Origin: Spirochaetia bacterium
GTDB lineage: Bacteria > Spirochaetota > Spirochaetia > UBA9216
Length of the DNA stretch: 64,000 nt
Assembly (NCBI GenBank): GCA_965140585.1
Contig: OZ223269.1
Location: 320,001 to 384,000, forward strand
Reading direction: 5' to 3'
Position 1 is the first letter of the stretch. Each line of letters starts with the position of its first letter. Positions 6,215 through 21,676 of the stretch are shown here, one piece after another. A program made the translations under genes and the position numbers. The notes beneath the pieces were generated by a model. It did no database searches, had not been told where the DNA came from, and saw only the letters and a program-made list of their open reading frames with translations.

Positions 6215-7522
6215 ATGTCGGCAATTGAAGAGTTTAACAATATTCTAAAATCCAACTTGGAAGGAGAATCCAGAGGTATATATTCGCTCTGCAGTGCTCA
6301 TTCAGAGGTAATAAAGGCGGCTATGAAGCAGTCTATGAGCGATGGTTCTCTTCTGCTTATTGAATCGACTAGTAATCAGGTCGATCAGTTCGGCGGATAC
6401 ACCGGAATGAAACCTGCTGATTTTATATCCTATGTTAAAAAAATTGCCGGTGAGACAGGCTATCCCGATGAACGTATTTTGTTTGGTGGAGACCATCTGG
6501 GGCCGAATGCCTGGCAATCCCTTAAAGCTGCAGATGCTATGAAAAACGCCAGAGAGCTCATCGCAGGCTATGTTAAAGCAGGATACCAGAAGATTCATCT
6601 TGATGCGAGTATGTACTGTGCAGATGATGAAGGGGACAGGCATAAACCGCTTGCCGATGAGATAGTAGCCGAAAGGGCCGCAGATTTGTGCAGTGTCGCA
6701 GAGAAAACCATAGTGGAAATGGGCAATCCGCATCGGCTTTCATATATTATCGGTACAGAAGTTCCTGTCCCGGGGGGAAGCAGAGAAAAGGAAGAGCAGG
6801 TAAATCCCACATCATCGGAAGATGCAATTCGAACTTATGAGGTAACCAGAGCTGCATTTGAAAAAAAAGGCTTGTCGTCGGCCTGGAAACGAGTATGCGG
6901 TCTTGTTGTTCAGCCGGGAGTGGAGTTCGGGGATGATCAGGTTTTTCATTACAACAGGAACATGGCCTCCGGGCTGTCTTCACTTGCAGGAAACCGTCTG
7001 CCGATTATTTTTGAAGCTCACTCCACGGACTATCAGACCGGTGAAGGTTTAAAACACCTTGTTGAGGATCACTTTTGTATTCTTAAAGTCGGGCCCTGGG
7101 TTACCTTTGCGTACAGAGAAGCGGTATTTGCTCTCGAATTGATTGAAAGGGAATTATGCGGAAAATCAGGGTGTCAGTTATCAGCGCTTCGGGATACAAT
7201 TGAAAATGTTATGATTGGTAATCCAAAATACTGGAAATCATACTATTCCGGAACTGAGGAAGAGATTGAACAAAAAAGGAAGTACAGTTTCAGTGACCGG
7301 GTAAGATACTACTGGCCCGATTCCGCAATTAAGGATTCGATATCCAGGCTCATGAATAATCTGTCAGGAAGACAGATCCCACTGTCACTATTAAGCCAGT
7401 TCATGCCCTCTCAGTTCTACTCAGTCCAGGATGGCTGGATACAGCCTGTAGCCGAAGAACTGATACACGATAGAATAGCTGATGTAATTAGAATTTATTC
7501 AGCAGCCTGCGGGACACTTTAG
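6215..7522 (+). CDS. gatZ: GatZ/KbaZ family protein (tagatose-6-phosphate 4-epimerase / aldolase accessory subunit)
   Basis: SLCSAH, IESTSNQVDQFGGYTGM, GGDHLGPN, KIHLDASM, GTEVPVPGG, VVQPGVEF, EAHSTDYQ, LKVGP, SDRVRYYW. Confidence 0.9.
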   Translation: MSAIEEFNNILKSNLEGESRGIYSLCSAHSEVIKAAMKQSMSDGSLLLIESTSNQVDQFGGYTGMKPADFISYVKKIAGETGYPDERILFGGDHLGPNAWQSLKAADAMKNARELIAGYVKAGYQKIHLDASMYCADDEGDRHKPLADEIVAERAADLCSVAEKTIVEMGNPHRLSYIIGTEVPVPGGSREKEEQVNPTSSEDAIRTYEVTRAAFEKKGLSSAWKRVCGLVVQPGVEFGDDQVFHYNRNMASGLSSLAGNRLPIIFEAHSTDYQTGEGLKHLVEDHFCILKVGPWVTFAYREAVFALELIERELCGKSGCQLSALRDTIENVMIGNPKYWKSYYSGTEEEIEQKRKYSFSDRVRYYWPDSAIKDSISRLMNNLSGRQIPLSLLSQFMPSQFYSVQDGWIQPVAEELIHDRIADVIRIYSAACGTL

Positions 7523-8086
7523 TATACCGCGGGTAAAATCCTTCACGAAACGGAGCATGCACTCATCAAGAGTGTAGGGATCTTTAAGTTCAGCATGATG
7601 CATATAGTGAAAAGTTGCTCCGGATATTATATTCACAAAGTGCCTTGAACTTTTTGCGGCATCAGTATCATCCTTCAGCTGATTCGAGTGGCTTTCAATA
7701 TAGTTTTTTACTATTTCTATCATCTGTTCCGGCTGGTTTTTAAGTTCTTTTTCAATTTCCTCAAAGGCAATAATTTCTTTAAAACTCATCTGGATAAGTC
7801 TGCTGTTCTTTTTAAAAAGATTAACCATTGCATTGCAGATAAGTATGAAATCCTTCTCAATATCATCTGTTGTATCCTGAAGAAGATATTCAGGAGTCGG
7901 TCGTACAATATATTTTCTGAAAGTCTCATGATAAATACTCTTTTTATTACCGAAGCACCTGAAGAGGGTTACCTCATTAACCCCGGCCGATTCTGCTATC
8001 TCCCGTGTTCTTACCGCGGCATAGCCCTTATCTGAAAATAGTTTTACAGATGCAGCAAGAATTTTATCTTTTGTATCTACGCTCAT
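7499..8086 (-). CDS. TetR/AcrR family transcriptional regulator
   Basis: ILAASVKLFSDKGY..TREIAESAGVNEVTLFRCFGNK HTH; divergent from the MATE gene. Confidence 0.92.
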   Translation of the reverse strand: MSVDTKDKILAASVKLFSDKGYAAVRTREIAESAGVNEVTLFRCFGNKKSIYHETFRKYIVRPTPEYLLQDTTDDIEKDFILICNAMVNLFKKNSRLIQMSFKEIIAFEEIEKELKNQPEQMIEIVKNYIESHSNQLKDDTDAAKSSRHFVNIISGATFHYMHHAELKDPYTLDECMLRFVKDFTRGILKCPAGC

Positions 8087-8136
8087 CTTTCTCCTCTTAC
8101 TATTAAATATACAATAATCAGAAAAGTGTTAAAAGT

Positions 8137-8177
8137 GCAAGTAAGTACTTGCTTTTATTATGTGATCTATATAAATT
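8137..8177 (+). promoter_or_regulatory. TetR operator GCAAGTA-AG-TACTTGC overlapping the MATE promoter (TTGCTT-17-TAAATT)
   Basis: Perfect 7-2-7 palindrome at 8137-8152 between divergent tetR and MATE genes. Confidence 0.7.
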
Positions 8178-8186
8178 ATTAAATGT

Positions 8187-9626
8187 ATGAAAGATATTAA
8201 TAATACAGATAAATCAGAATTTCTGGGAAAAGAAAAGATATTCCCTCTTTTAATAAAGATGGCCGCACCTGCTGCAGCAGGAATGCTTGTACAGGCCTTA
8301 TATAACATTGTTGATACTATTTTTGTTGGAAGAGGAGTCGGTTCACTTGCAATCGGAGCACTCTCTCTGGTTTTTCCAATTCAGATGATTGTTGCTTCTA
8401 TCGCAATGGCACTGGGAATAGGTACAGCTTCTATTGTTTCAAGAAGACTTGGAGAAAAACGGTTTGATGATGCATCAAAAGCAGTAGGAACCGGATACAC
8501 TTCCATGCTTGCAGGAACATTTATTCTTACTGCAATACTTGTCATTTTCATGAAGCCCATACTTGGATTTTTTGGAACTACAGAAGTGCTTATGCCGCTT
8601 ACATCGGAATATACAAAATGGGTTTCAATCGGATTTTTCTTTTTTGCCTTTTCATCCTTTGCAAGTACAATGGCAAGAGCGGAAGGAAACTCAAAAGGTG
8701 CAATGATAGGTATGATGGTGGGTGCAGTCCTTAACTGCCTGCTGGATCCGCTGTTTATATTCGGATTCGACCTCGGTGTTATGGGTGCTGCAATTGCCAC
8801 TTCCATAAGCCAGATGGTTTCCGCCTTGTATTTCATAAGTATCTATGTTAGGAAAAAAAATACAGTAAAGATAAGACCGGGATACTTTCGAATTGATACA
8901 AAGATTCTGAAAGAAAGCGTTGTTCTCGGTATTCCGCCCTTTATTCAGAATGCAGGAATGAGCCTGCTTGTTCTGATTGTTAACAATTCGCTAGGACATT
9001 ACGGCGGAGAAGAAGCCATAGTAAACTACGGAATGTCAAACCGGTTTATGTCTGTTCTGATTATGCCTATTATCGGTATTGCTCAGGGCTTTCAGCCTAT
9101 TGCAGGCTACAATATCGGGGCAAAGAATTATGACAGGGTTAAACAAAGCCTTAAAACCGCAATAATTACCGGATTGTCAGTTACCATGGTAGGCTACAGT
9201 ATTGCAATGATCTTTCCTCAGGCATGTATGGGGCTTTTTACCTCAGATACTGCGATAATTGAATCAAGTGCGAGAGTACTGAGAATTGTAATGTTATCTA
9301 TTCCACTGGTTGCAGTGCAGTTTATCGGAATAAGCTATTTTCAGGCCGTGGGAAAAGCAAAACAGTCAATGCTTCTCGGCCTTTCAAGACAACTGCTGCT
9401 TTTTCTGCCGGTTCTTATCATACTTCCGCTGATAATAGGACTTGATGGTGTCTGGGGAACTTTCCCTGTTGCTGACACCTTATCATCAGTACTTACCTAT
9501 ATCCTGCTTATTGTTGAATTAAAGAAGCTCGGCAGGGCTGATGAGGAAAGAAAGGCTGATATTGAAATAGAAAAGGATAATTATGTAAAAGTGCAGCTTC
9601 AGCCGGAATTGAGGGCTGAAGCCTGA
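8187..9626 (+). CDS. MATE family efflux transporter (MepA-like)
   Basis: LYNIVDTIFVG, RAEGN, LDPLFIFGFDLGVMGAAIAT, QPIAGYNIGAK, LSRQ; about 12 TM. Confidence 0.93.
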   Translation: MKDINNTDKSEFLGKEKIFPLLIKMAAPAAAGMLVQALYNIVDTIFVGRGVGSLAIGALSLVFPIQMIVASIAMALGIGTASIVSRRLGEKRFDDASKAVGTGYTSMLAGTFILTAILVIFMKPILGFFGTTEVLMPLTSEYTKWVSIGFFFFAFSSFASTMARAEGNSKGAMIGMMVGAVLNCLLDPLFIFGFDLGVMGAAIATSISQMVSALYFISIYVRKKNTVKIRPGYFRIDTKILKESVVLGIPPFIQNAGMSLLVLIVNNSLGHYGGEEAIVNYGMSNRFMSVLIMPIIGIAQGFQPIAGYNIGAKNYDRVKQSLKTAIITGLSVTMVGYSIAMIFPQACMGLFTSDTAIIESSARVLRIVMLSIPLVAVQFIGISYFQAVGKAKQSMLLGLSRQLLLFLPVLIILPLIIGLDGVWGTFPVADTLSSVLTYILLIVELKKLGRADEERKADIEIEKDNYVKVQLQPELRAEA

Positions 9627-9638
9627 TTAAAATAGATC

Positions 9639-9902
9639 TTACTGCCAGCGTTCCAGTTTGGGAATGCCGGCGGCAAAAAATGAAGCTATGAAGCCGGGCA
9701 TCTTCATTTTTTTCAGCTGTTCCTTGACCAGGGATTTCATTTCTTCCATGGTCATCTCAGGCTGAACGAAGGCTCCGTTTTCATAGCAGTAACTGCAGTA
9801 TTTATTATTCAGGGACCCGTCTGGTTCGGTTCCCCCGCCTTTCGGGTCCTGTTTCATAGGTATACCGCAGCTTTGACAATTTTTGTATTTTACCTTATTC
9901 AT
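9639..9902 (-). CDS. Zinc-ribbon domain protein
   Basis: CQSCGIPM...GTEPDGS..KYCSYCYENG...IPKLERW. Confidence 0.85.
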   Translation of the reverse strand: MNKVKYKNCQSCGIPMKQDPKGGGTEPDGSLNNKYCSYCYENGAFVQPEMTMEEMKSLVKEQLKKMKMPGFIASFFAAGIPKLERWQ

Positions 9903-9905
9903 CGA

Positions 9906-10358
9906 TTAATCCTCTTTAATATAAAAGTAAATCTCTGTTATCAGATCTTCAGGCTTTGTATCTTCGGGTGAATTCATGTACTGCTCGTACATAGCTGTTT
10001 CAAAAACTATACCCTTAGTTTTCGCATATTCGCTGATTTTATCGTATGTTTCACTAAGATTTGCGTATGTACCCTTATGTGTTTCAATCAGCATCTTTCC
10101 TCCGGGTAGATATCCTGAATTTACATTACCTCCGTTTTTAAAGCTTCCTGAAACTGGAAAACCGGCCTCAATCTCCAGATTATCCATATCCATGTTGAAA
10201 TACATTGCGTAAGGTGCGCCTGTGAACTGAATATTCTGATTTTCAGCATATTCAGCTATCTCTCCATAAGCTTTTGCCAGAAACGCAGGTATTTCCTGCA
10301 TTGTTGTGATTCCTTTTACAGCCATAGTCGGCTGTTCTTCCTTCTGAATTATCTTCAT
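9906..10358 (-). CDS. GyrI-like small-molecule-binding protein
   Basis: GAPYAMY, EAGFPV, LPGG, HKGTY, YEQYMNSP..PEDLITEI; AAGGAG RBS. Confidence 0.88.
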   Translation of the reverse strand: MKIIQKEEQPTMAVKGITTMQEIPAFLAKAYGEIAEYAENQNIQFTGAPYAMYFNMDMDNLEIEAGFPVSGSFKNGGNVNSGYLPGGKMLIETHKGTYANLSETYDKISEYAKTKGIVFETAMYEQYMNSPEDTKPEDLITEIYFYIKED

Positions 10359-10484: not shown

Positions 10485-11366
10485 ATGAGTAAAATAAAAT
10501 TTAATAATGATTTATGCAGAATATGCGGTTTGTGTGAAAAAGTATGTCCTAACAAAATTATTATAAGGACAGATTCAGGAATGACTACTAGAAATGACCA
10601 TGTTTTCTCCTGTTTCCAGTGCGGACAATGTATGGCTGTCTGTCCTGCCTGCGCTGTCGAGGTGGAAGGTTTAAATTATAATAGTGATTTTTTTGAACTC
10701 CCCAATGCTGCAGAAAGTAAAGAGCTGTTTAGTAATCTGATAAAAACAAGAAGATCAGTGCGTAATTTTCAAAAAAAGGCTGTACAGGAAGAGCATCTAA
10801 CAAAAATAGTTGAAGCAATAAGTCTTGCTCCACCGGGATTTCCTCCCCTAAGGTATGAGCTGACAGTAATCAATGATGCTGATCTGATGACTGAATGTAT
10901 ACCGCTAATGATAGAATTCTATGAAAAACTTGTAAAGCAGATGAAAAATCCGGTTATCAGATTTTTTATTAAAAACAGTGTCGGAAATCAGGCATTTTTA
11001 ACCATGAAGCAGCATCTTATTCCACTGCTTAAAATACGGCTTCCTGATTTAAAAAACGGAAATGAAAATACCTTAACAAGAGATGCTCCTGCAATGATAC
11101 TTTTTCATCAAAATAGAAATGAAGAGGACCTGACAGAAGATATTTTGATTGCTGCGACATTCGGAGTATTATCTGCACATTCATGGGGCCTTGGAGGCTC
11201 AATTATGAGTATAATACCACCTGCAGTTGATAGAAGTCCGGAACTTAGGAAATTATTTAAAATACCTGAACAGAATAAAGTTGTGTCATCACTTATCATG
11301 GGATATCCCAATATAAAATACCAGCGCGGGATAAAACGCGAAATAAAAAAAATAATAAGGCTGTAA
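10485..11366 (+). CDS. Nitroreductase family protein with N-terminal 2x[4Fe-4S] domain
   Basis: CRICGLCEKVCP, CFQCGQCMAVCP, RRSVRNF. Confidence 0.9.
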   Translation: MSKIKFNNDLCRICGLCEKVCPNKIIIRTDSGMTTRNDHVFSCFQCGQCMAVCPACAVEVEGLNYNSDFFELPNAAESKELFSNLIKTRRSVRNFQKKAVQEEHLTKIVEAISLAPPGFPPLRYELTVINDADLMTECIPLMIEFYEKLVKQMKNPVIRFFIKNSVGNQAFLTMKQHLIPLLKIRLPDLKNGNENTLTRDAPAMILFHQNRNEEDLTEDILIAATFGVLSAHSWGLGGSIMSIIPPAVDRSPELRKLFKIPEQNKVVSSLIMGYPNIKYQRGIKREIKKIIRL

Positions 11367-11376
11367 GTTTAAATCC

Positions 11377-12222
11377 ATGATAGATTCACCTGTGATATAT
11401 TATTTTTCAGGTACCGGAAATTCTCTCCATGTAGCAGAGCTGCTTAAGGCTAAACTTCCAAATTCAGATATAATCCCGGTAATCAAAGCATATTATGAAA
11501 GAAAATTTATATGCACATCAAATAAAGTTATCTTCGTTTTTCCATGTCACGGCCTGACTATTCCTATCCCGGTAAAGAAATTTATACAAAACCTTGAAAT
11601 TGATAAAGGATCATATATATCTTCAATAGTGACGAGGGGAGGCACAGTTTTTAAAGGTAATATCCTGCTTAAAAAATTATTAAACCGGAAAAGACTTAAA
11701 CTTAATTCCTCATTTCTAATCGATATGATATCCAATGATCCAAAATTCAAAAATTATTCACTTCCAGATATAGCCGATTTTAAAAACATTATGAAAAAGT
11801 CTGAGTCCAGTGTTTGGAATGCTGCTGAAATTATTGAATCTGGTAAGGATTATTCTGCCCCTGATACGGGTGTTTCATTCAGCCGGAACCGAATCCTTAA
11901 CACAATTCTTGAATTGTTAATCCCTTTTTTGACTCATAATATATCGCCAAAAGTCAGTAAATATTTTTATTATGATAAAAAGTGTACGGGTTGCGGAGTA
12001 TGTGAAAAGGTTTGCCCGTCATCAAAAATTATGATAATTAAAAATGAACCCGTATGGCAGAAAAAGATTACCTGCTATCTCTGTTATTCCTGTCTTAATT
12101 ACTGTCCCCAAAGCGCAGTACAGATTTATTCGAAAAAATGGATGAGATCATATACTGGTGAAAATCCCAGATATCATCATCCAGAATGCAATTTCGCAAA
12201 GATTGCAAAGCAGAAAGTATAG
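11377..12222 (+). CDS. EFR1-type flavodoxin-ferredoxin fusion
   Basis: YFSGTGNS, CTGCGVCEKVCP, CYLCYSCLNYCP, RYHHP. Confidence 0.88.
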   Translation: MIDSPVIYYFSGTGNSLHVAELLKAKLPNSDIIPVIKAYYERKFICTSNKVIFVFPCHGLTIPIPVKKFIQNLEIDKGSYISSIVTRGGTVFKGNILLKKLLNRKRLKLNSSFLIDMISNDPKFKNYSLPDIADFKNIMKKSESSVWNAAEIIESGKDYSAPDTGVSFSRNRILNTILELLIPFLTHNISPKVSKYFYYDKKCTGCGVCEKVCPSSKIMIIKNEPVWQKKITCYLCYSCLNYCPQSAVQIYSKKWMRSYTGENPRYHHPECNFAKIAKQKV

Positions 12223-13071: not shown

Positions 13072-14715
13072 ATGACTAATCCAAGTGCATATTTCTTAAA
13101 ATGTTATTCAGAAAGTCCGCTCGAAGTTCAGAAAAAAGCTTCGATTCTTGTAGTGATCAATTTTCTATTTATCATTCTTTCACTATTGCTGACACTGGCA
13201 ATGGCTTTAACCGGAGCGGTTGTGGCTATGGTTATGACCTCAGTTCTGGCTGTCTGCTGCTTATTTTTTCTTGTTCTGATTAAAAAAGGGAAATTTAAAA
13301 TAGCTGTAAATTTATTTCTTGCAGTATTCTTTTTAATAATTTTTGCAACAATCAAGTTTGATGCCTATGTAGATGTATATGAAACCTATGTGATTTCAGC
13401 ACTTGGGCTGTTTTTTCTCATTATCACCTGTCTTGTAGGATATTCTATATACCAGCCTGTTGCTGCAACGATATTAAATTGTGCAGCAATATCTGCAATT
13501 TATCTGGTTGATGTTCTTCCTTCACAGAAGGGACAAGTCGGTATTCTTGATGTTCAGAATCTGGTTACCTGTTATATAATAGTTATCGGCTCAGGCTTTA
13601 CAGCTGTTATGATACTCAGACTGCTTAAAACTCTTGTGAAGGATGCGGAAGATTCAAAGTCGGAAGTTCAGAAACATTTTGCAGAGTTTAATACAGGAGT
13701 TAAGGAAACATTTGAAATCTTCACCGGAATAGGTGAGGAGCTCAGGAGTTCCTCGGATACTTCGATTAATACGATTAGCAGAGTTTCATCAGATTTAAAC
13801 CGTATTAAAACCTCTGTAGAAGAATTGGAAACAAGCATATTTGAGATGTCAGGAGCAAATAAAAAATCTGTTGAATCGGTAGATTTTCTCAATTCAACCC
13901 TCGATAAATACAATCTTACCGTACAGACTACATCTTCTTCTGTAGAGCAGCTAATCGCCAATATTAATTCAATTTCATCAAATACAGCCTCACAGATGAA
14001 GGCAGTGGAGGCTTTGGTTTCCTCCTCGATGTCCGGTGAAGCAGAAATGGATGATTCTGTTGGACTGATTAACAGTATAGACAAGAGTTCATCTGATATG
14101 CTTGAAATGGTTCAGATTATTATGAGTATTGCTGATCGTACAAACTTACTGGCAATGAATGCGGCAATTGAAGCAGCCCATGCGGGAGAATCAGGTAAAG
14201 GTTTTGCAGTTGTCGCCGACGAAATAAGAAAACTGGCGGAAGAAACAGCTAAAAATTCCAGGAATATTTCTGAACGTTTATCAGAAAGTCTCTCTGCAGT
14301 CAGCAGGACTACTGAAGCCAGTCAGAGAGTAGGGCAGACATTTCACTTAATTACAGAAGAAATACGAAAGGTTTCATCGATGTTCAGGGAGGCTTCTGCA
14401 GGTATAGATGAGATGTCTCAGGGAACCGGTGCTATTCTGTCCGAAATTGAAGGAATAGTTGATAAATCGGCACTTGCCGATGAAGCTATGAAGAACCTTG
14501 AAAATATAAATGCACAAAACACAGAGAAGCTCGATGAGATAGTCAGCCGGGCAGAAAATGTAGCAGAAACCATATCTGATATAAAAAGAATTTTCACTGA
14601 TGCAGAAGCCCAGGCTGTGAGAGTCTCTGAAATAGGACAGGAAAATGTCAGTCAGCTTAACCGTTTCAGTAAAAAAATGAATTCACTCAATTCAGAAAAA
14701 AGGGCTCCGGCTTAA
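13072..14715 (+). CDS. Methyl-accepting chemotaxis protein with multi-TM sensor region
   Basis: About 6 N-terminal TM; [38 protein letters not shown]. Confidence 0.93.
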
Positions 14716-14735
14716 GCTGAGGCTCCAGCCGGAGC
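14704..14735. terminator. Hairpin between convergent MCP and transporter genes
   Basis: GCTCCGGCT...AGCCGGAGC inverted repeat. Confidence 0.5.
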
Positions 14736-14763: not shown

Positions 14764-16047
14764 CTAATAGATACCTATAGCAACCAAAATTAAATAAAGT
14801 GCAAGGTTAATAAACGGCCAGCCAAGAAGGAAGTTGAAAATAGTTTTCCTGTGACCGTCATCATCAACACTTGCGACTACAAGACCGCCTGAACCGGAGA
14901 ACGGTGATACTGCAGTAGCCATTGCTCCTACTGCTACAGCTGCATAGCCGATACCGGGCACAAATCCGCCGGCTATTGCCAGTGCCGGAACCAGGGCAAA
15001 GAAAGTAGTGTTAACTACGAACCCGCTTACAAAAAGACTCATCACTCCTGCAATAAGTGCAAGCACTATTGGTACAATTGCAACCGGAACGCTTTCTCCA
15101 AGCCATGTTGATACCATCTCGATAGCTCCGGTTTTGCTGACTATTCCGATAAGTGTTCCCATACCGCAGAGAGTTGTAAGGGCGGAAAGAGGAACACGCT
15201 TAAAAGCTGCTTTTTCATCACCGACTTTAAGTACAGAAAGAACTACTGTACCGATGAAAGCGATCCAGACCAGGTATACACCACTGGCTATTTTCGTAGC
15301 AGCAGGGCTGTTCGGGAAAATTAGTCCAAGAAGCGGTGCTGCAACAAGAACTACTACAAAGCCGATGATAACAGCAAGATTTGCCTTCTGTTTCGACTCG
15401 AAGGGTTCAGGTTTTTCAAGAACCGGTGCTTCAATTTTATATCCCTTGAAAATTATATAAGCGGCAATAAATATTATTGTGAAAAGAAGTGTAATCTGAA
15501 AAAACGCATGGTTTCCGTAACTGTTCACTTCTTCAACTGAATGCCCACCTGCAGTCATGGCCATCTCCCTGAGGAAGATACCTGCAGTACTTATCGGTGA
15601 AAAACCTCCTGCACTGATACCAGATACACAGGATACAGCAGCAAGAATATTATTCATTCCTGTAACTTTGGCTATGGACAGACCGATAGGAATCATCATA
15701 ACAGTAGCGCCGTCTCCGGCTCCTATCGCAGCCATAATAAATGATAGAATGAACAGTACAATGGGAATTGCCCATGGCATGTTCCGGACAGCATAAACGA
15801 CCTTATCCGCAACTTTTCCAAGTGTTCCGTTAAGTACGGCAAAGCTGTAGAAAAGTGTAACAGAAAAAAGCAGCAGAAATAGTCTTGTTGGAAATACTCC
15901 CACTAAACCTCGTGGTGATTCGCCAAGGACAAAGACTCCGATAATATAGGCTGCAGCTATAGCCCACAGACCTATATTAGTTTTAGTTTTAGCTCCTAAT
16001 GCAATTACAGCAACAATTGCAATTAGACTGATGATGATAATCGACAT
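14764..16047 (-). CDS. MatC/SLC13 (DASS-like) carboxylate transporter
   Basis: About 12 TM; NIGLWAI, FPTRLF, FAVLNGTL, SPIS, SPFSGSGG; ATG at 16047 after AAGGGGG. Confidence 0.8.
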   Translation of the reverse strand: MSIIIISLIAIVAVIALGAKTKTNIGLWAIAAAYIIGVFVLGESPRGLVGVFPTRLFLLLFSVTLFYSFAVLNGTLGKVADKVVYAVRNMPWAIPIVLFILSFIMAAIGAGDGATVMMIPIGLSIAKVTGMNNILAAVSCVSGISAGGFSPISTAGIFLREMAMTAGGHSVEEVNSYGNHAFFQITLLFTIIFIAAYIIFKGYKIEAPVLEKPEPFESKQKANLAVIIGFVVVLVAAPLLGLIFPNSPAATKIASGVYLVWIAFIGTVVLSVLKVGDEKAAFKRVPLSALTTLCGMGTLIGIVSKTGAIEMVSTWLGESVPVAIVPIVLALIAGVMSLFVSGFVVNTTFFALVPALAIAGGFVPGIGYAAVAVGAMATAVSPFSGSGGLVVASVDDDGHRKTIFNFLLGWPFINLALYLILVAIGIY

Positions 16048-16073
16048 CACGCCCCCTTGAAAGTAAATATTTA

Positions 16074-16097
16074 AATGCCGGGTTCTCATCCGGCATT
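16074..16097 (-). terminator. Intra-operon stem-loop between GRE and transporter genes
   Basis: AATGCCGG-N8-CCGGCATT with only a weak U-tract. Confidence 0.5.
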
Positions 16098-16106
16098 ATA
16101 CCCTAG

Positions 16107-18494
16107 TTAAACCTGAGAGAATTCGGTTCGTTCTATAATTTCATCCTGCATTGGTTCGCCAAGTGCTGTAAAATAAGCACTGTATCCGGCAACTCTTACT
16201 ACAAGATCCTTATGCTTTTCAGGTTCGATCTTTGCAGCTATAAGATGATCTTTATCAACTATATTGAACTGCATATGTTTTCCGCCCTGGGCAAAATAAG
16301 TTTTAATCAGGTTCCCGAGTTTTACAAGATCAGCTTCTGTTTTAAGAGCTGATGGATGAAACTTCATATTTAGAAGAGTTGCCTGGTAGGTGTCCTGATT
16401 GATTTTCATTGCGCTCTTAAGAACGCCCGTAGGTCCTTTTCTGTCCATTCCATGCATCGGGGACATTGAGCCGTCGGCAAGAATCTCACCGCTCTTTCTT
16501 CCATCCGGAGTTGCTCCTGTAAGAAGCCCGCCGGGCTGGTGCGAGGTGATTGAAATAGCAGTTGTTACAGCACGTCCGCCGTAGTACGTAGGCATGGAAG
16601 CCAGCTTCTTCTCAATATGGTCATACAGCTCCGCGGCCAGTACGTCAACTTCGTCAATGTCATTACCGTATTTAGGTGCGTCAAGGAAGTGCTGTCGCAT
16701 TTCTTCGTAACCTTCCCAGTCAGCATCCAGCGCAGTGAGAAGTTCCTGCATCGTGTATTTCTTTTTATCAAACACAAGATGTTTAACTGCTGCCAGCGAA
16801 TCTGCCACGTTTATTGCGCCAATAGTACAGAGAACAAGTCCGTTTTCAAGCGGCATGGTTCTTCTAAGAATGTCTTTGCCTTCCTTGATTGCATCCTTCA
16901 TTAGTGATGATCTGAATGGATCAGGGAAGAGATCCTGTTCTGCTTTAAGTTCTATATTGCTTTTTTCTACCCCGAGTTCAAGAAGATAATCAAGCTGCTT
17001 GTAGAATGCATCCTTGTACAGATTGAAATCAGACATACCTGTTACATCTCCGGTTTCAATACCGACCATTTCTTCTGTTCCCTTGTTATATCCGTTGTGC
17101 ATGAAGATATCGTAGGCAAGTGCAATTATGAACATACCTACTGCAACTGTTCTTGCTTTAGCCGGTATATTTCCATCAAGACATCCTGTCATAATGTAAT
17201 TACGTGAGTCTTCCATGGACATTCCCTGATAGCGGAAGAAGTTGATGTAGGATTTATCTCCTACGAAGGCAGGCATTCCCATACCGGTTTTTACTACTTC
17301 AAGTGCCTTAACCATGAGGTCATCAGGTGTTTTGTCATGAATACGAAGTGTCAGAGTATGATGCGGAACTCTGGTTTCTTTTGCAGCATCAAGAAGGAGG
17401 TAGGTGAGCGGGTTGCTGGCATCATTTCCATCCTTATCCACGCCGCCGATAGTCCAGTTATGCCATTTTGCCATACCCGCATTTTTCTTTCTGTTCTGTT
17501 TTCCTGAAACCCTGTTAAGCTTCATATCCTTTATTCTAAGGTTCTCAAGCAGTTCGAGAATTTCGTCATTGTTTGTTACCCCGTTTTCTATATCCTTTTT
17601 GTAGAAAGGATACATAAACTGGTCGAAACGGGCACCCGCTGTTGTAGGTGAGGGTGATGCAAGCAGGAATGTGAACCAGAAAGACTGAATTGCTTCAAAG
17701 AAGCTTTCAGCAGGCTTGGCTGGAACTTTTCGGCAGGCTTCTGCAATTCTGAAAAGCTCTGCTTTTCTCTGCTTGTCATTTTCTTCAGCACCCATTTTTT
17801 CAGCGAGATCAGCATATCTTTCAGCAAGTTTTATTACTGCATGGTGAACTATAATAATAGATTTTAGAAAATCTACAGCTTCCTTGTCAGAATTACCCTT
17901 CGCTTCATGTTCTTTAAGTGCTGCTTCACAGTCAGCGATGATCTTTAGAGACCCGTCATTAAGCATTCTTTCAAAATCCATTCCGACAAGGAAGAAGCCA
18001 GGACCAAGGCCGAGGCCTGACTGTGCATATCCGCCGCCGCTTCCTTCTTTTCCCTTCCACGGAGGGAGGATCATTCCTGATTTCATAAAAGGCCAGAGTT
18101 TTTCATTCTTCATGAAAACAGCGCCCATTGCAGAAACGAGGTTGTAATCACCGAAGTTGGCATTTATTTCCTGAAGTTCTTTTTCATCTTCGGGGGTAAT
18201 GCTGTAGTTTTCGGATTTAAGCGAATCAACCTCATCCGGAGTCCATGTTCCGTATTCATAATCAATTTCAAGCCCGAATGGCTTGCTTGCACCTGCTCCG
18301 GCAAATAGATCGCCTTCTTCGATGAAAATTGTTATGTTTTCGAGGATGTTCTTCATAATCTGCGCACGACGCAGAACATTCGGCTGCCCCTCGGTTTCTG
18401 AAAGTGTCTTGGTTGCGATACGGAATTTTTCAATGCATAGCGGGTATTTATCGACATGCAGCTCATTCAGCATCTTTTCAATTCTTGGTGTCAT
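16107..18494 (-). CDS. Glycyl radical enzyme (PFL2-like superfamily), substrate unknown
   Basis: Gly loop LVVRVAGYSAYF, ATPDGRKSGEILADG, Cys loop MTGCLDG, RFDQFMYPFY, TIGG; ATG at 18494 after GGAGG. Confidence 0.93.
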   Translation of the reverse strand: MTPRIEKMLNELHVDKYPLCIEKFRIATKTLSETEGQPNVLRRAQIMKNILENITIFIEEGDLFAGAGASKPFGLEIDYEYGTWTPDEVDSLKSENYSITPEDEKELQEINANFGDYNLVSAMGAVFMKNEKLWPFMKSGMILPPWKGKEGSGGGYAQSGLGLGPGFFLVGMDFERMLNDGSLKIIADCEAALKEHEAKGNSDKEAVDFLKSIIIVHHAVIKLAERYADLAEKMGAEENDKQRKAELFRIAEACRKVPAKPAESFFEAIQSFWFTFLLASPSPTTAGARFDQFMYPFYKKDIENGVTNNDEILELLENLRIKDMKLNRVSGKQNRKKNAGMAKWHNWTIGGVDKDGNDASNPLTYLLLDAAKETRVPHHTLTLRIHDKTPDDLMVKALEVVKTGMGMPAFVGDKSYINFFRYQGMSMEDSRNYIMTGCLDGNIPAKARTVAVGMFIIALAYDIFMHNGYNKGTEEMVGIETGDVTGMSDFNLYKDAFYKQLDYLLELGVEKSNIELKAEQDLFPDPFRSSLMKDAIKEGKDILRRTMPLENGLVLCTIGAINVADSLAAVKHLVFDKKKYTMQELLTALDADWEGYEEMRQHFLDAPKYGNDIDEVDVLAAELYDHIEKKLASMPTYYGGRAVTTAISITSHQPGGLLTGATPDGRKSGEILADGSMSPMHGMDRKGPTGVLKSAMKINQDTYQATLLNMKFHPSALKTEADLVKLGNLIKTYFAQGGKHMQFNIVDKDHLIAAKIEPEKHKDLVVRVAGYSAYFTALGEPMQDEIIERTEFSQV

Positions 18495-18495
18495 T

Positions 18496-19434
18496 TTAGC
18501 CTCCAATCTGACTGATCAGGTTATACTGATCGAAAATAAATTTTACAGAATTCATATGTGCATCATCAGGCGGATCAGCCTCAAAGGAAGGAGCTTCTTT
18601 TTCAAGCTGTTCCCATTTTCCGATTCCCATTCGATGATAGGGAAGAAGACTGACCGGTGTGTCTTCACCCAGTTTCTCTTTGATGAATCGGGCTGTCTGA
18701 TTAAGATTTTCTGATGAATCGTTATATCCTGGTATAAGAGGGATACGAATATTGACAGGAATATTCAGTTCTTTCTTAATTTTAACTATGTTCTCAAGAA
18801 TCCTTTTATTTCCTACACCAGTACCGAATTTGTGTCCTTCGGAATCCATGTGCTTGAGATCATAAAGTACGAGATCGGCATCTTTTATAGTATCTTTTAC
18901 TACATCCCAGTCAGCATTTCCTGTAGTTTCTACTGCTGTTGATATGCCTGATTCTTTAAGCATAGCAAGCAGTGTCCGGGAGAATTCCGGCTGAAAAAGA
19001 ATTTCACCGCCGCTGAGAGTTACTCCTCCTCCTGAACCTTCGTAGAAAATCTTGTCAGATTCGACATCAGCAATAACCATGGCCGCTGTCATTTCCTTAC
19101 CGATTATACTTCTTGCTTCAGTAGGACAGACTGGTACGCAGGCTCCGCATGCAGTACACAGTGTGCGGTTTGTATGTATTTTATTATCTTCAAGAAAAAT
19201 AGCCTTTTCCGGACATACGCTGATGCAGGCCCCGCATGTGATGCATTTATCAGCATTAAAAGATAATACCGGTTTAATAGTATGAGATTCCGGGTTCTGG
19301 CACCATTTGCACCTTAATGAACAGCCGCTAAGAAATACAGTTGTTCTTATTCCGGGCCCATCATGAATAGAATAGTGCTGAATATCGAAAACCCAGCCCT
19401 TTATGTGTTGATCAGCCAATAGGTAAACCCTCAT
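18496..19434 (-). CDS. Glycyl-radical enzyme activating protein (radical SAM with 2x[4Fe-4S] insert)
   Basis: HDGPGIRTTVFLSGCSLRCKWCQNPES, CITCGACISVCP, CTACGACVPVCP, GGVTLSGGE, LLPYH. Confidence 0.95.
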   Translation of the reverse strand: MRVYLLADQHIKGWVFDIQHYSIHDGPGIRTTVFLSGCSLRCKWCQNPESHTIKPVLSFNADKCITCGACISVCPEKAIFLEDNKIHTNRTLCTACGACVPVCPTEARSIIGKEMTAAMVIADVESDKIFYEGSGGGVTLSGGEILFQPEFSRTLLAMLKESGISTAVETTGNADWDVVKDTIKDADLVLYDLKHMDSEGHKFGTGVGNKRILENIVKIKKELNIPVNIRIPLIPGYNDSSENLNQTARFIKEKLGEDTPVSLLPYHRMGIGKWEQLEKEAPSFEADPPDDAHMNSVKFIFDQYNLISQIGG

Positions 19435-19451
19435 TTATTTTGGTATAAGTG

Positions 19452-19482
19452 ATGGTAAACCTTACCACTGTGGGAAGGTCAA
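19452..19482 (-). promoter_or_regulatory. MerR-type promoter/operator TTGACC-19 bp-TACCAT with dyad ACCTTCCCAC-A-GTGGTAAGGT
   Basis: 19-bp spacer, near-perfect inverted repeat in the spacer, MerR gene immediately upstream. Confidence 0.85.
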
Positions 19483-20342
19483 ATTTTTTTATTAATTTTT
19501 TTTACAGGAACATAAAGCTCGGCAAGGTGGTCATGCTTTCCGGATATGGTACCGGGTGCTACGCATTTTCTGATTACATCTCCGACTATTTCGTAATCTT
19601 CCTTTTTCAGAAAATCTTTAAGCTTATCATAATATTCATCAGAGTTATTAAGACTGCCCCAGAACCTCATTGTTGCATATTCAGAGTTCTCAGGAACTTT
19701 CTGGACATATTTATTACGGGATTTATAAATACCATATTTAAGGCTGATTCCAATAAACTGATTATATTTACCGTTAATAAAATCGTCCTTACTGAACACA
19801 GTTGAAACCTGTGAAATTAAAAGCGTTGGATTGCCTTCAAGTACCGATTCAAGTTTTCGTACCGCTATCTCAAAATCTTTACGATTATCAAAGGGATATT
19901 CAAGATATATCAGCTTTAGATCCCTTGCCTGTGAAATATGAAGAACTTCGACTTCTTTATTATGTAGTGCTTCTTCAATCGATTCTATATGGCTCGTGAA
20001 GGTCCTTTTAATATTTGATAGCTCCCTTACTTTGTTTTCTGTCTCATTTATCTGCTCAATCATCAGCTCTTCAAGACTCTCTATGTTGGTTTCATTCAAT
20101 TTGGTTTTTATCATGTCATACGAAACATCGAGTTTTCTAAGGTATTTGATGAAATTGATTAAATAAAACTGAGAGGAAGAGTAGTATCTGTAGCCATTAA
20201 TCTGATCAATTTTATAAGGTTTTAACAGATTAATACTATCCCAGTATCTCAGCATTTTTGATGGAATGCCGAATATATTTGAGACTTCACCGATCGAATA
20301 ATTGTTATTGATCCACTGGTTTTTCACAGGTGCTTCTACCAT
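19479..20342 (-). CDS. MerR family transcriptional activator with BmrR/GyrI-like C-terminal effector domain
   Basis: YSIGEVSNIFGIPSKMLRYWDSINLLKP..NGYRYYS, coiled coil, C-terminal YATMRFWG...ELYVPV. Confidence 0.9.
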   Translation of the reverse strand: MVEAPVKNQWINNNYSIGEVSNIFGIPSKMLRYWDSINLLKPYKIDQINGYRYYSSSQFYLINFIKYLRKLDVSYDMIKTKLNETNIESLEELMIEQINETENKVRELSNIKRTFTSHIESIEEALHNKEVEVLHISQARDLKLIYLEYPFDNRKDFEIAVRKLESVLEGNPTLLISQVSTVFSKDDFINGKYNQFIGISLKYGIYKSRNKYVQKVPENSEYATMRFWGSLNNSDEYYDKLKDFLKKEDYEIVGDVIRKCVAPGTISGKHDHLAELYVPVKKINKKI

Positions 20343-20545: not shown

Positions 20546-21676
20546 ATGATAAATGAAATACAGGCGAAAAGCATATTAAGGAAGTATAAGAAGATAGATT
20601 CCTGGTTTATAAGCGCATATGCTATAAACCTGTACAGAGGATGCACTCATAATTGTGTTTATTGTGACGGCCGAGATGACAAATATCAGGTTGAAGGAGT
20701 TTTTGGACGTGATGTGAGTGTAAAAAGCAATGCAATTGAACTTCTGAGAAAGGAGCTTGATCCTGCCAGGAAGAGAAAACCCTTTAAAAACGGATATTTT
20801 ATCATCTGCGGCGGAGTAAGCGATTCATACCAGCCCTTCGAAAATGAGCTGCAGCTGTGCAGGCAGACTCTGGAACTATTTCGTGAATTTAATCATCCGG
20901 TTCACATCCTGACTAAATCAACTTTGGTTGAACGGGATATGGAACTGCTGCTTGATATTAACCGGAACATAGGTGCAACAGTCAGCTTCAGTTTTTCAAC
21001 CGTTGATGATGAGCTGGGGAAGCTGCTGGAACCGGGAGTGCCTCTGCCTTCAAAGCGTCTTGCTCTTATTAAAAGGATAAAAGAAGCCGGCCTTAACTGC
21101 GGAATGTTTCTTATGCCGGTTGTCCCTGGCATTACAGATTCGGCTGAGCAGATTGATGCGTCGGTAGAGGCGGCCTCAAAGGCCGGAGCTGATTACGCTG
21201 TATTCAGCGGTATGACTCTTAAACCGGGCAGGCAGAAAGATTATTTTATGAATTTCCTGGATAATTACCGCCCTGAATTAAAAAGCGGATATAATAAGGT
21301 TTACGGCAGCGAAAACAGCTGGGGTTCACCGTCTTTGACCTACGCCGCGGCTGTTGCACGGCGCTTTGATGCTGCCGCCTCAAGGCATGCATTAGCAAAA
21401 CGAATACCTTCAGAGATTTTTGAGTCTCTGGTTTCAAGGGATGAACTGATTATTCTGATTCTCGAACAGCTTGACTGGCTGATGAAACTTAAGAATCGTG
21501 AAAGTCCATATGGTTATGCAGCCTATTCCCTCACTAAAAATGAAAAGCCGGTTACTGAAATGACTTATAAAGAGTTAACCGCAATGCGCGGTATAGGAAG
21601 CTTTACAGCCCGCCTTATTCTCGAAATTATAGAGACCGGAAGCTCAGCATATTACCGTAAAATGCTGAGAGGGTAA
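20546..21676 (+). CDS. Radical SAM protein (SplB/COG1533-like) with C-terminal helix-hairpin-helix domain
   Basis: NLYRGCTHNCVYC, SDSYQPFE, ILTKS, LEPG; C-terminal YGYAAYSL..RGIG..IIETG. Confidence 0.85.
   Translation: MINEIQAKSILRKYKKIDSWFISAYAINLYRGCTHNCVYCDGRDDKYQVEGVFGRDVSVKSNAIELLRKELDPARKRKPFKNGYFIICGGVSDSYQPFENELQLCRQTLELFREFNHPVHILTKSTLVERDMELLLDINRNIGATVSFSFSTVDDELGKLLEPGVPLPSKRLALIKRIKEAGLNCGMFLMPVVPGITDSAEQIDASVEAASKAGADYAVFSGMTLKPGRQKDYFMNFLDNYRPELKSGYNKVYGSENSWGSPSLTYAAAVARRFDAAASRHALAKRIPSEIFESLVSRDELIILILEQLDWLMKLKNRESPYGYAAYSLTKNEKPVTEMTYKELTAMRGIGSFTARLILEIIETGSSAYYRKMLRG

What the first reader, a model, noticed from the sequence alone, without database searches (positions are those of the whole stretch)
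14764..20342. Self-contained glycyl radical enzyme system: MerR sensor, activase, atypical GRE, carboxylate carrier
Seen: four co-oriented genes, a MerR-type promoter directly ahead of the activase, and no aldehyde/alcohol dehydrogenase, microcompartment, CoA-transferase or small-subunit gene in the unit. Known: GRE eliminases such as CutC and propanediol dehydratase usually sit with aldehyde-processing or BMC genes, PFL has a Cys-Cys pair, and MatC/SLC13 carriers move organic acids. Inference: an inducible one-step radical conversion of an imported organic acid, for example a decarboxylation with product export, by a GRE I cannot match to any characterised class.
Basis: partly seen in the sequence, partly recalled or inferred. 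Interest (0 to 1): 0.85.

Follow-up and report, generated by a model that had tools for sequence, protein, structure and literature searches.

The report
Uncharacterised Cys-x-Asp glycyl radical operon
A ligand-sensing regulator, a radical-installing activase, an oxygen-sensitive radical enzyme from a widespread but unstudied branch (aspartate where all studied relatives have glutamate) and an organic-acid carrier form one switchable operon whose substrate, probably a carboxylic acid, is still unknown.

Summary
Four co-oriented minus-strand genes (BmrR-type MerR regulator, GRE activase, 795-aa glycyl radical enzyme, MatC/CitMHS carrier) form a tight operon. A conserved MerR-type promoter with a 19-nt spacer sits ahead of the activase, and a terminator follows the carrier.

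The GRE matches no characterised class. It falls below every NCBIfam cut-off and is at most 31% identical to any solved GRE. Its Cys loop reads C-L-D instead of C-x-E. All 109 relatives at 40% identity or more share C-x-D.

Relatives sit beside organic-anion carriers in 25 of 70 loci. None of 21 loci of other GREs does. This supports a carboxylate substrate.

New here: the unit is not fully self-contained.
- The same operator, with no mismatch, precedes a second, paralogous C-x-D GRE and a TctBAC transporter on another contig.
- The window's activase is the only intact GRE activase in a genome with five intact GREs.
- In other organisms the clade is embedded in CoA-transferase, 2-hydroxyacyl-CoA dehydratase and beta-oxidation gene sets.

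The chemistry is unresolved. I favour a stereospecific 1,2-elimination or isomerisation of a hydroxy- or amino-carboxylate. The scan noted this clade before in another genome (e1-4066929).

The parts
19479..20342 (-). BmrR-type MerR regulator (MerR1): N-terminal MerR HTH plus a ~200-aa C-terminal effector domain
   Evidence: Pfam MerR_1 at 5.4e-14. PDB best hits are BmrR, over the HTH only. 12 of 16 aligned homologues hit the GyrI-like domain PF06445, although the window protein itself does not. It is 34% identical over its full length to a second MerR next to the C7 paralogue locus.
19445..19485 (-). MerR-type promoter/operator: TTGACC, 19-nt spacer with dyad, TACCAT
   Evidence: Read. Conserved in L001, L002 and L081. 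Two further 0-mismatch copies in the own genome lie ahead of the B-type GRE and tctBAC.
18496..19434 (-). Glycyl radical enzyme activase (radical SAM; likely start TTG 19419)
   Evidence: TIGR02494, 356 bits against cut-off 174. CX3CX2C motif plus two ferredoxin-like Cys motifs in the translation. Only intact copy over the cut-off in the genome.
16107..18494 (-). Glycyl radical enzyme of the C-x-D clade (A-type), 795 aa. By ORF numbering from TTG 18506: catalytic Cys442, Asp444, Arg452, radical Gly774
   Evidence: Pfam PFL-like 517 bits and Gly_radical 108 bits. TIGR01774 534.6 bits, below its cut-off of 678.2, and all equivalogs far below theirs. Invariant residues from alignment A1. AF2 model with pLDDT 77 and pTM 0.82. 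Foldseek top hits GD and PD with TM 0.82-0.83 at 30-31% identity.
16060..16105 (-). Stem-loop between GRE and carrier (possible partial terminator or attenuator)
   Evidence: RNA fold -13.6 kcal/mol, z -3.1. Function is inferred.
14764..16047 (-). MatC/CitMHS-type organic-anion carrier, 427 aa
   Evidence: Pfam MatC_N 102 bits and CitMHS 70 bits. Homologues are named di/tricarboxylate transporter or SLC13 permease by their sources. Single copy in the genome.
14696..14735 (-). Intrinsic terminator of the operon (9-bp GC-rich outer stem, then a T-run)
   Evidence: RNA fold -23.5 kcal/mol, z -3.8, followed by UUUUUU.

Best explanation
This is an inducible operon for an uncharacterised clade of glycyl radical enzymes.

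Regulation (inferred from the family). A BmrR-type MerR activator binds a small-molecule effector. It then activates a promoter with an over-long 19-nt spacer, the standard MerR mechanism.

Gene products (shown by sequence, function inferred). The transcript encodes the activase, which installs the radical on Gly774. It also encodes the GRE and a MatC/CitMHS carrier that brings in an organic anion.

Catalysis (inferred). In the GRE, Gly774 passes the radical to Cys442. The thiyl radical abstracts a substrate hydrogen. Asp444, which replaces the Glu of all studied eliminases and isomerases and of the decarboxylase HPAD, is the acid/base. The clade-conserved Arg452, with Arg532, Arg339 and Lys341, is placed to hold carboxylate group(s).

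Most likely chemistry (inference, about 40-45%). A stereospecific 1,2-elimination or ring-opening isomerisation of a chiral hydroxy- or amino-(poly)carboxylate, giving an oxo-acid that central metabolism can take. This would explain why no downstream enzyme is encoded here.

Wider system (shown for the operator sites, inferred for their function). The operon is one arm of a small MerR regulon. The same operator precedes a paralogous B-type C-x-D GRE and a TctBAC tricarboxylate-type transporter on another contig. Both depend on this locus's activase, the only intact one in the genome.
For: Operon anatomy:
- Gene order and domains.
- Translational coupling of activase and GRE, and a terminator after the carrier.
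- The 19-nt-spacer dyad promoter is conserved ahead of the activase in 4 contigs.

Regulon:
- The operator has three 0-mismatch sites in the 4.85-Mb genome: this promoter, one 40 nt before the B-type GRE, and one before tctBAC. About 3.5e-5 sites would be expected by chance for 19 fixed bases (own arithmetic, no tool result). The reversed-pattern control gave 2 hits at up to 3 mismatches against 9 for the real pattern.
- In L001 a second copy of the operator precedes the tandem B-type GRE.

The clade:
- 109 of 109 GRE copies at 40% identity or more have C-x-D, and 97 of 109 have Arg452. Of 34 more distant copies, none has C-x-D and 19 have C-x-E.
- The three C-x-D GREs of this genome score 535, 517 and 514 bits on TIGR01774, below the 678 cut-off. 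The genome's two other GREs score 981 and 777.

Carboxylate substrate:
- A MatC, TctA, DctM, DcuC, DASS or CitMHS carrier lies within 5 kb in 25 of 70 family loci, against 0 of 21 loci of other GREs.
- All three intact paralogues in this genome sit beside MatC or TctBAC, and the pseudogene sits near a TRAP system.
- In Geosporobacter, three C-x-D GREs share a ~36-kb island with three MatC paralogues, each GRE directly adjacent to one.

Chiral substrate and elimination:
- A- and B-type GREs occur as tandem or near-tandem pairs in 7 loci.
- Recurrent neighbours are PGA_cap proteins, whose only NCBIfam hit is the epimerase MslH (97 bits, far below its cut-off of 700), and MmgE/PrpD proteins.
- The best family and structure hits are eliminases: HpsG, CutC, GD and PD.

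Sole activase.
Against: - No experiment, no RNA data and no ligand-bound model exist. The active-site roles of Asp444 and Arg452 rest on sequence alignment to GD and CutC and on conservation only.
- The active-site loops of the model are low-confidence: residues 151-172, 327-343 and 657-686 have pLDDT below 50.
- Similarity to eliminases is barely higher than to the decarboxylases: IAD scores 438 bits against HpsG 511, and AAD has E 4e-116 in the PDB search.
- 45 of 70 family loci showed no carrier with my six queries. MFS and Opp-type systems were not counted.
- The control loci come largely from one family of Lachnospiraceae-type GREs and are not independent of each other.
- Neighbours in relatives also include esterases (BD-FAE, tannase), PadR, URO-D/MtaA-like proteins and aldehyde:ferredoxin oxidoreductase. 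These could point to aromatic acids or other chemistry.
- The window's own MerR does not itself score on the GyrI-like model.
Confidence: 0.6

Rival explanations
1. Radical decarboxylase with precursor/product exchange. The carrier imports a di- or tricarboxylate, or an aryl- or vinyl-acetate-type acid. The GRE removes CO2, as HPAD, IAD, PAD and AAD do. The product leaves the cell, which conserves energy or detoxifies the acid.
For: - Enzyme plus carrier with no downstream enzyme in the window.
- GRE decarboxylases also carry an acidic residue two positions after the Cys (PMC13450708 section 5.4).
- AAD and IAD, like this GRE, are not described with a small subunit (for AAD stated). They are about as similar to it as the eliminases are.
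- CoA-transferase, ACAD/ETF and beta-oxidation genes in relatives could consume a shortened acid.
- A BmrR-type regulator and a putative MFS regulon member would fit a response to a toxic acid.
Against: - Known GRE decarboxylase substrates are achiral arylacetates. That leaves the A/B enzyme pairs and the epimerase-like and PrpD-like partners unexplained.
- IAD and HPAD NCBIfam scores are far below their cut-offs: 438 against 1100, and 346 against 1150.
- CitMHS and MatC carriers are usually described as symporters, not exchangers (recalled, not tested).
Confidence: 0.22
2. A divergent member of an already known GRE class: a glycerol or propanediol dehydratase, or an isethionate or DHPS sulfonate lyase. 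In that case the carrier would import a sulfonate or polyol acid.
For: - Best equivalog hit is the HpsG-type sulfopropanediol dehydratase, and best structures are CutC, GD and PD.
- TRAP and TTT systems also carry sulfonates (recalled).
Against: - All equivalog scores are about half their cut-offs, for example 511 against 1000.
- C-x-D replaces C-x-E in 109 of 109 clade members.
- By alignment, GD His164 corresponds to the clade-invariant Leu173.
- No aldehyde-processing, microcompartment or sulfite-handling gene lies in the window.
Confidence: 0.05
3. A different radical reaction on an acid that is not yet in the GRE repertoire. Examples would be C-C lyase or retro-hydroalkylation of a substituted succinate-type or branched polycarboxylate, or a radical epimerisation or rearrangement.
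For: - Neighbours in relatives recall the beta-oxidation of benzylsuccinate-type acids: family III CoA-transferase, ACAD, ETF, enoyl-CoA hydratase, hydroxyacyl-CoA dehydrogenase and thiolase.
- MmgE/PrpD partners act on branched tricarboxylates in their known members (family knowledge).
- The clade has its own Gly-rich insert, GSGGG..GLGPG, with no counterpart in the GD alignment.
Against: - No XSS-type small subunits are present.
- No direct evidence exists.
- BSS and MASS are among the more distant structural hits.
Confidence: 0.13

Closest known systems
B12-independent glycerol dehydratase (C. butyricum, PDB 1R8W) and GRE 1,2-propanediol dehydratases (5I2G, 9RCO)
   Same: Same GRE fold (Foldseek TM 0.82-0.83). 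Same radical Gly motif RVxGY, catalytic Cys on the Cys loop, acidic residue at Cys+2, RFDQ(Y/F)MYP(F/Y)Y motif and TIGR02494-type activase.
   Different: - Only 30-31% identical.
- Asp instead of Glu at Cys+2.
- GD His164 aligns to the invariant Leu173.
- A Gly-rich insert is present, and Arg452 follows the Cys loop.
- There is no aldehyde dehydrogenase or microcompartment context; an organic-anion carrier stands in its place.
Choline TMA-lyase CutC and its MerR-like activator
   Same: CutC is the best PDB sequence hit (E 1.2e-131). The regulator has a weak full-length hit to the NCBIfam 'choline utilization transcriptional activator', so the MerR-plus-effector-domain architecture is shared.
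   Different: CutC scores 469 bits against a cut-off of 1050, and the regulator 49.7 bits against 450. CutC has C-x-E and a microcompartment context.
HpsG/IslA sulfonate-cleaving GREs
   Same: HpsG is the best NCBIfam equivalog hit (511 bits). These enzymes also take an anionic substrate brought in by dedicated carriers and held by Arg residues (PMC13450708 section 5.6.3).
   Different: The score is about half the cut-off of 1000. They have C-x-E. No sulfite metabolism lies nearby, and the carrier type is MatC/CitMHS.
GRE arylacetate decarboxylases without a small subunit (AAD stated as such in the review; IAD)
   Same: A carboxylate substrate, a neighbouring transporter reported for these systems (recalled), and similar overall similarity (AAD 7E7L, E 4e-116).
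   Different: IAD scores 438 bits against a cut-off of 1100. Their substrates are achiral. The C-x-D clade forms A/B pairs and has epimerase-like partners.
HypD/HplG and HpyG/HpzG: paralogous GREs for stereoisomers of hydroxyprolines
   Same: Paralogous GREs handle related isomers of a carboxylate-bearing substrate (PMC13450708 sections 5.6.1 and 5.7). This is analogous to the A/B pairs here.
   Different: All four have C-x-E. HypD scores 450 bits against a cut-off of 1100.
BmrR (B. subtilis MerR-family multidrug sensor)
   Same: MerR HTH (best PDB hits), a GyrI-like effector domain in 12 of 16 homologues, and a 19-nt spacer promoter with a dyad.
   Different: It controls a catabolic radical-enzyme operon rather than an efflux pump. 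Similarity to BmrR is detected only over the HTH.

Membership tests
Glycyl radical enzyme superfamily (PFL-like division) | PFL-like barrel domain plus a C-terminal glycine-radical domain with RVxG | tested here: met
   Pfam PF02901 517 bits and PF01228 108 bits. RVAGYSAYF with G774. AF2 model matches GD and PD at TM 0.82-0.83.
Glycyl radical enzyme superfamily (PFL-like division) | Catalytic Cys on the Cys loop and a cognate radical-SAM activase | tested here: met
   C442 aligns to GD C433 and is invariant. The adjacent activase scores TIGR02494 356 bits against 174 and has CX3CX2C.
Glycyl radical enzyme superfamily (PFL-like division) | Formation of a stable glycyl radical | not testable with these tools
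   Needs anaerobic reconstitution and EPR.
TIGR01774 PFL2/glycerol dehydratase subfamily | Score at or above the curated cut-off of 678.2 bits | tested here: not met
   534.6 bits. The two non-C-x-D GREs of the same genome score 981 and 777 bits.
GRE 1,2-eliminases and isomerases (GD, PD, CutC, HypD, IslA, HpsG, HplG, YbiW, PflD) | C-x-E motif on the Cys loop | tested here: not met
   The loop reads C-L-D. 109 of 109 clade copies have C-x-D. The motif definition is from PMC13450708.
GRE 1,2-eliminases and isomerases | NCBIfam equivalog cut-offs (CutC 1050, HypD 1100, HpsG 1000, HpfG 1000) | tested here: not met
   Scores are 469, 451, 511 and 419 bits.
Pyruvate formate-lyase | Adjacent Cys-Cys pair and the TIGR01255 cut-off | tested here: not met
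   The loop is G-C-L, and the score is 126 bits against 994.
GRE decarboxylases (HPAD, IAD) | Equivalog cut-offs, and a small subunit for HPAD | tested here: not met
   346 bits against 1150, and 438 against 1100. There is no small ORF between the operon genes, whose intergenic gaps are 1 and 59 nt.
MerR family, BmrR type | N-terminal MerR HTH | tested here: met
   PF13411 at 5.4e-14. BmrR chains are the top PDB hits.
MerR family, BmrR type | C-terminal GyrI-like effector domain | tested here: inconclusive
   The window protein gives no hit even at E 10. 12 of 16 full-length homologues do hit, with best E 4.2e-8.
MerR family, BmrR type | Target promoter with a 19-20-nt spacer and a dyad operator | tested here: met
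MatC / CitMHS (IT superfamily) carriers | Pfam gathering scores | tested here: met
   MatC_N 102 bits against 23, and CitMHS 70.5 bits against 31.9. The substrate is not testable here.

The most novel reading that the evidence does not exclude
The C-x-D clade is a new functional class of glycyl radical enzymes. It would use aspartate and an arginine clamp to carry out a reaction on (poly)carboxylic acids that has not yet been described for this superfamily. The class would be organised as paired A/B enzymes for related or isomeric acids, each with its own anion carrier. In this genome the pair would be switched by two MerR sensors through one shared operator and served by a single activase.
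Probability: 0.35. Interest if true: 0.8.

Novelty: new variant of a known kind. Interest (0 to 1): 0.62.

Why it matters
Glycyl radical enzymes carry out chemistry that anaerobes cannot otherwise do. Each newly assigned class (choline, hydroxyproline, isethionate, anhydro-sugars) has opened up a piece of gut or sediment metabolism.

This clade is large and spread across phyla. One search found 600 relatives of the query alignment among one-genome-per-species representatives, a count that also includes GREs outside the clade. The 55 closest loci come from Spirochaetota, Bacillota, Acidobacteriota, Planctomycetota, Chloroflexota, Desulfobacterota and Actinomycetota, and many are rumen or gut MAGs. 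The clade changes a catalytic residue that is otherwise constant among the reviewed eliminases and isomerases.

The locus studied here is a compact, experiment-ready version:
- one regulator with a defined operator that can serve as a biosensor for the unknown substrate;
- one activase;
- one enzyme;
- one carrier.

Finding the MerR ligand would give the substrate without blind screening.

Tried and rejected
- RNA evidence: no RNA holder listed.
- Literature: searches for a characterised member or for a C-x-D motif found none. One search was uninformative because short terms matched unrelated words. PDB 9RCO, named only 'glycyl radical protein', is a propanediol dehydratase. GRE mentions in an Atribacteria preprint and in a uric-acid paper were irrelevant.
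- The standard promoter and terminator scans found nothing above shuffled expectation. The MerR promoter (19-nt spacer) and the terminator (long loop) fall outside their definitions.
- My first two regular expressions for the Cys loop under-counted. I replaced them with position mapping from alignments.
- PDB sequence search with the carrier gave nothing useful.
- Horizontal transfer was considered. G+C in the unit is 0.42-0.45 against 0.34-0.36 on some flanks, but other neighbouring genes are also 0.43. Distribution is patchy: MatC at E<=1e-40 in 1 of 401 sampled genomes of the phylum, and the GRE in 3 of 11 genomes of the order. Transfer is suggestive, not shown.
- A specific substrate was considered (tartrate isomers, quinate/shikimate, hydroxycitrate, 2-hydroxyglutarate, itaconate/aconitate/tricarballylate, arylacetates). 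None is supported over the others by any result.


Full report
**1. What is in the sequence**

Four ORFs lie head to tail on the minus strand at 14764-20342.
- Regulator: Pfam gives MerR_1.
- Activase: radical-SAM plus ferredoxin motifs. NCBIfam gives TIGR02494 at 356 bits, above its 174 cut-off. The translation shows CX3CX2C and two ferredoxin-like Cys motifs.
- GRE: PFL-like plus Gly_radical.
- Carrier: MatC_N plus CitMHS.

The genes are tightly packed.
- The GRE's likely start is ATG 18494, one base after the activase stop, behind a GGAGG. This gives 795 aa, the length of the 97%-identical homologue.
- The carrier's likely start is ATG 16047 behind AAGGGGG. It aligns with the M15 column that is invariant in homologues of 426-427 aa.
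- A strong hairpin with a T-run follows the carrier (-23.5 kcal/mol, z -3.8).
- A weaker hairpin lies between GRE and carrier (-13.6 kcal/mol).

**2. The promoter**

Between the regulator's stop and the activase lies TTGACC, then 19 nt, then TACCAT. The spacer holds the dyad CCTTcCCAC-a-GTGGtAAGG. A 19-nt spacer with a central dyad is the hallmark of MerR-activated promoters (family knowledge). The standard 16-18-nt scan does not see it.

The element is conserved ahead of the activase in L001, L002 and L081.

The regulator is BmrR-like.
- BmrR chains are the best PDB hits, over the HTH only.
- 12 of 16 full-length homologues hit the GyrI-like ligand-binding domain.
- The window's own protein does not reach significance on that model.

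**3. The enzyme fits no characterised class**

It scores below every NCBIfam equivalog:
- HpsG 511 against 1000;
- CutC 469 against 1050;
- HypD 451 against 1100;
- IAD 438 against 1100;
- HPAD 346 against 1150;
- PFL 126 against 994.

It also falls below the broader TIGR01774 subfamily model, at 535 against 678. The best solved relatives are CutC, glycerol dehydratase and propanediol dehydratase. By sequence E is 1e-131 to 1e-123. By fold, TM is 0.82-0.83 at 30-31% identity (model pLDDT 77, pTM 0.82).

The Cys loop reads T-G-C442-L-D444-G-N. A 2026 review, of which I read sections 5.4-5.8 and 7, states that all C-O, C-N and C-S eliminases and all isomerases keep C-x-E. It describes a Glu two residues after the catalytic Cys in the decarboxylase HPAD and a catalytic Glu502 in IAD. 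It lists no C-x-D class and says whole clades remain unannotated (PMC13450708).

Five literature searches found no characterised member. The library does not hold most subscription papers, so this is 'not found', not 'not in print'.

**4. C-x-D defines a large clade**

The protein search returned 1436 hits. The best 120 were 57-97% identical, from many phyla and many gut or rumen MAGs. Scans of species-representative genomes and of metagenomes gave 92 loci whose GRE is at least 40% identical.
- Mapping query positions through the alignments, 109 of 109 such GRE copies have C-x-D, and 97 of 109 have Arg at 452.
- Of 34 more distant copies in the same loci, 19 have C-x-E, 10 have C-x-S and none has C-x-D.
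- In a 15-sequence alignment, C442, D444, R452, G774 and a Gly-rich insert (G155-S-G-G-G ... G166-L-G-P-G170) are invariant.
- By the HMMER alignment to glycerol dehydratase, the insert has no counterpart, and GD His164 falls on the invariant Leu173.

A tree of 60 full-length copies separates an A-type (R452 and R532; the window enzyme) from a B-type (R452 and H532). A and B occur as tandem or near-tandem pairs in 7 loci.

I reached the motif and the carboxylate link independently of it.

**5. Linkage to carriers**

Among the window and its five closest relatives (68-82% identity), AE-GRE-MatC is found in the window, L002, L081, L082 and L020. L001 has AE-GRE(A)-GRE(B) instead.

The figures below are and cover loci with at least 5 kb of total flank.

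| Loci | n | Anion carrier within 5 kb | MatC | Activase within 5 kb |
|---|---|---|---|---|
| C-x-D family | 70 | 25 | 20 | 39 |
| Other GREs | 21 | 0 | 0 | 21 |

Caveats apply. The carriers counted are those detectable with my six queries (MatC, TctA, DctM, DcuC, DASS, CitMHS). MFS and Opp systems were not counted. The control loci are mostly one family.

In Geosporobacter ferrireducens a ~36-kb island holds three C-x-D GREs, each directly adjacent to one of three MatC paralogues. The island also holds:
- CitMHS and DASS carriers;
- family I and family III CoA-transferases;
- 2-hydroxyacyl-CoA dehydratase alpha and beta;
- ACAD and ETF;
- hydroxyacyl-CoA dehydrogenase/enoyl-CoA hydratase and thiolase;
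- PGA_cap;
- PucR and sigma-54 regulators.

Across 55 relatives' loci the recurrent neighbours are:
- PGA_cap (14 loci) and PucR-type regulators (13 loci);
- MmgE/PrpD (7), family III CoA-transferase (7), HGD-D subunits (6 and 5) and family I CoA-transferase (5);
- Opp-type ABC, TRAP, TTT and MFS systems, ACAD/ETF and several esterases.

The common denominator is organic acids. The exact acid is not revealed.

**6. The unit is one arm of a regulon and supplies the genome's only activase**

Searching the 4.85-Mb genome with the operator gave three perfect sites:
- this promoter;
- a site 40 nt upstream of a B-type C-x-D GRE on contig 7, with a TATAAT -10 box;
- a site after that GRE's terminator, ahead of tctB-tctA-tctC.

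Each has the same 19-nt spacing. A second MerR, 34% identical over its full length, ends that locus.

Two sites with 2 mismatches precede a URO-D/MtaA-like gene and an MFS transporter. These are weaker candidates. A URO-D-like gene, 31% identical, also lies about 1 kb upstream of the orthologous operon in L002.

In L001 the two MerR genes, the activase and the A and B GREs are contiguous, and a second operator precedes GRE-B. The window's genome therefore looks like a split version of that arrangement, with a carrier added to each half.

A third intact C-x-D GRE on contig 9 sits in tctBAC-prpD-like-PGA_cap-GRE under a PucR regulator. A fourth copy is a pseudogene near a TRAP system.

None of these loci has an activase. 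With both the protein and TIGR02494 as queries, the only intact GRE activase in this 98.5%-complete genome is the window's. A second copy, beside a canonical TIGR01774 GRE on contig 1, is broken into three pieces with stops.

All three genomes of the order that carry the A-type also carry a second A-type paralogue of the contig-9 kind (57-58% identical) and a B-type copy. That is 3 of 11 genomes searched.

**7. How it most likely works**

*Shown:* the gene set, the motifs, the operator copies and the carrier linkage.

*Inferred from family knowledge:*
- the effector-bound MerR activates the promoter;
- the activase makes the Gly774 radical;
- Cys442 becomes the working thiyl radical.

*Inferred from conservation and alignment:* Asp444 is the acid/base, and Arg452 (with Arg532) binds carboxylate.

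For the reaction itself I give these rough odds:
- about 40-45% to a stereospecific 1,2-elimination or ring-opening isomerisation of a hydroxy- or amino-carboxylate;
- about 22% to decarboxylation;
- about 13% to another reaction new for GREs;
- about 5% to a divergent known class.

The first option is favoured for three reasons.
- The nearest families are eliminases.
- A/B enzyme pairs and epimerase-like partners suggest chiral substrates. PGA_cap's only NCBIfam hit is the epimerase MslH, far below its cut-off. The MmgE/PrpD family includes an epimerase, which I recall rather than tested. Known GRE decarboxylase substrates are achiral.
- An oxo-acid product would need no dedicated downstream gene.

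None of this is decisive.

**8. Verdict**

The finding is a new variant within a known kind of system, already seen once by this scan on other DNA. The added, testable point is that the MerR sensor and operator offer a direct route to the unknown substrate.

Noticed in passing
own genome, contig 7: 291626-296300 (locus L142 8627-15303): A B-type C-x-D GRE (44% identical), tctB-tctA-tctC and a second MerR (34% identical to the window's). Two perfect copies of the window's operator are present, one before the GRE and one before tctB. There is no activase in 20 kb.
   Followed up: yes
own genome, contig 9: 301650-311920 (locus L141 8650-18918): A PucR-type regulator lies divergent from tctB-tctA-tctC, an MmgE/PrpD-like gene, a PGA_cap-like gene and a C-x-D GRE (58% identical). 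There is no activase. The PGA_cap protein's only NCBIfam hit is the lasso-peptide Trp epimerase MslH (97 bits, far below its cut-off of 700).
   Followed up: partly
own genome, contig 1: 752986-753720: A second GRE activase is broken into three pieces with in-frame stops. It lies beside an intact canonical TIGR01774 GRE (981 bits) and a shikimate-dehydrogenase-like gene. The window's activase is therefore the only intact one for five intact GREs.
   Followed up: partly
own genome, contig 9: 321440-323744 (locus L143): A C-x-D-family GRE pseudogene, split by TAG and TGA stops, next to AraC, a DHDPS-like gene and a TRAP DctPQM system.
   Followed up: no
own genome, contig 4: 313303-313325 and contig 5: 183711-183733: Operator-like sites with 2 mismatches and 19-nt spacing lie ahead of a URO-D/MtaA-like gene and an MFS transporter. 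They may be further regulon members. A URO-D-like gene also lies upstream of the orthologous operon in L002.
   Followed up: partly
window 10485-12222 (+): A nitroreductase-ferredoxin fusion and an EFR1-family ferredoxin (flavodoxin-like plus 4Fe-4S) lie 2.5 kb from the operon. Flavodoxin plus 4Fe-4S genes also sit near family GREs in L029, L043, L053 and L055. They could be a reductant for the activase.
   Followed up: no
window 13072-14715 (+): A methyl-accepting chemotaxis protein with an unassigned sensor domain converges on the carrier gene. MCP genes also lie near the contig-7 GRE locus and twice in the Geosporobacter island.
   Followed up: no
L139 and L140 (Geosporobacter ferrireducens chromosome, about 1.977-2.008 Mb): A ~36-kb island with three C-x-D GREs, each directly adjacent to one of three MatC paralogues. 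It also holds one activase, CoA-transferases, 2-hydroxyacyl-CoA dehydratase, ACAD/ETF, beta-oxidation genes, PGA_cap, and CitMHS and DASS carriers.
   Followed up: partly
window 20546-21676 (+): A radical SAM protein of the Rv2578c/PA0069 type with a C-terminal helix-hairpin-helix domain, divergent from the MerR gene. It is probably unrelated to the operon.
   Followed up: no
window 7499-10358: A TetR regulator, a MATE efflux pump and a stand-alone GyrI-like protein (150 aa) lie a few kb from the operon.
   Followed up: no
L034 and L038: A C-x-D subclade lacks Arg452 and Arg532 (Leu and Ala instead). It sits with aldehyde:ferredoxin oxidoreductase, a Zn alcohol dehydrogenase and a TRAP system, which hints at an aldehyde product in that branch.
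   Followed up: no
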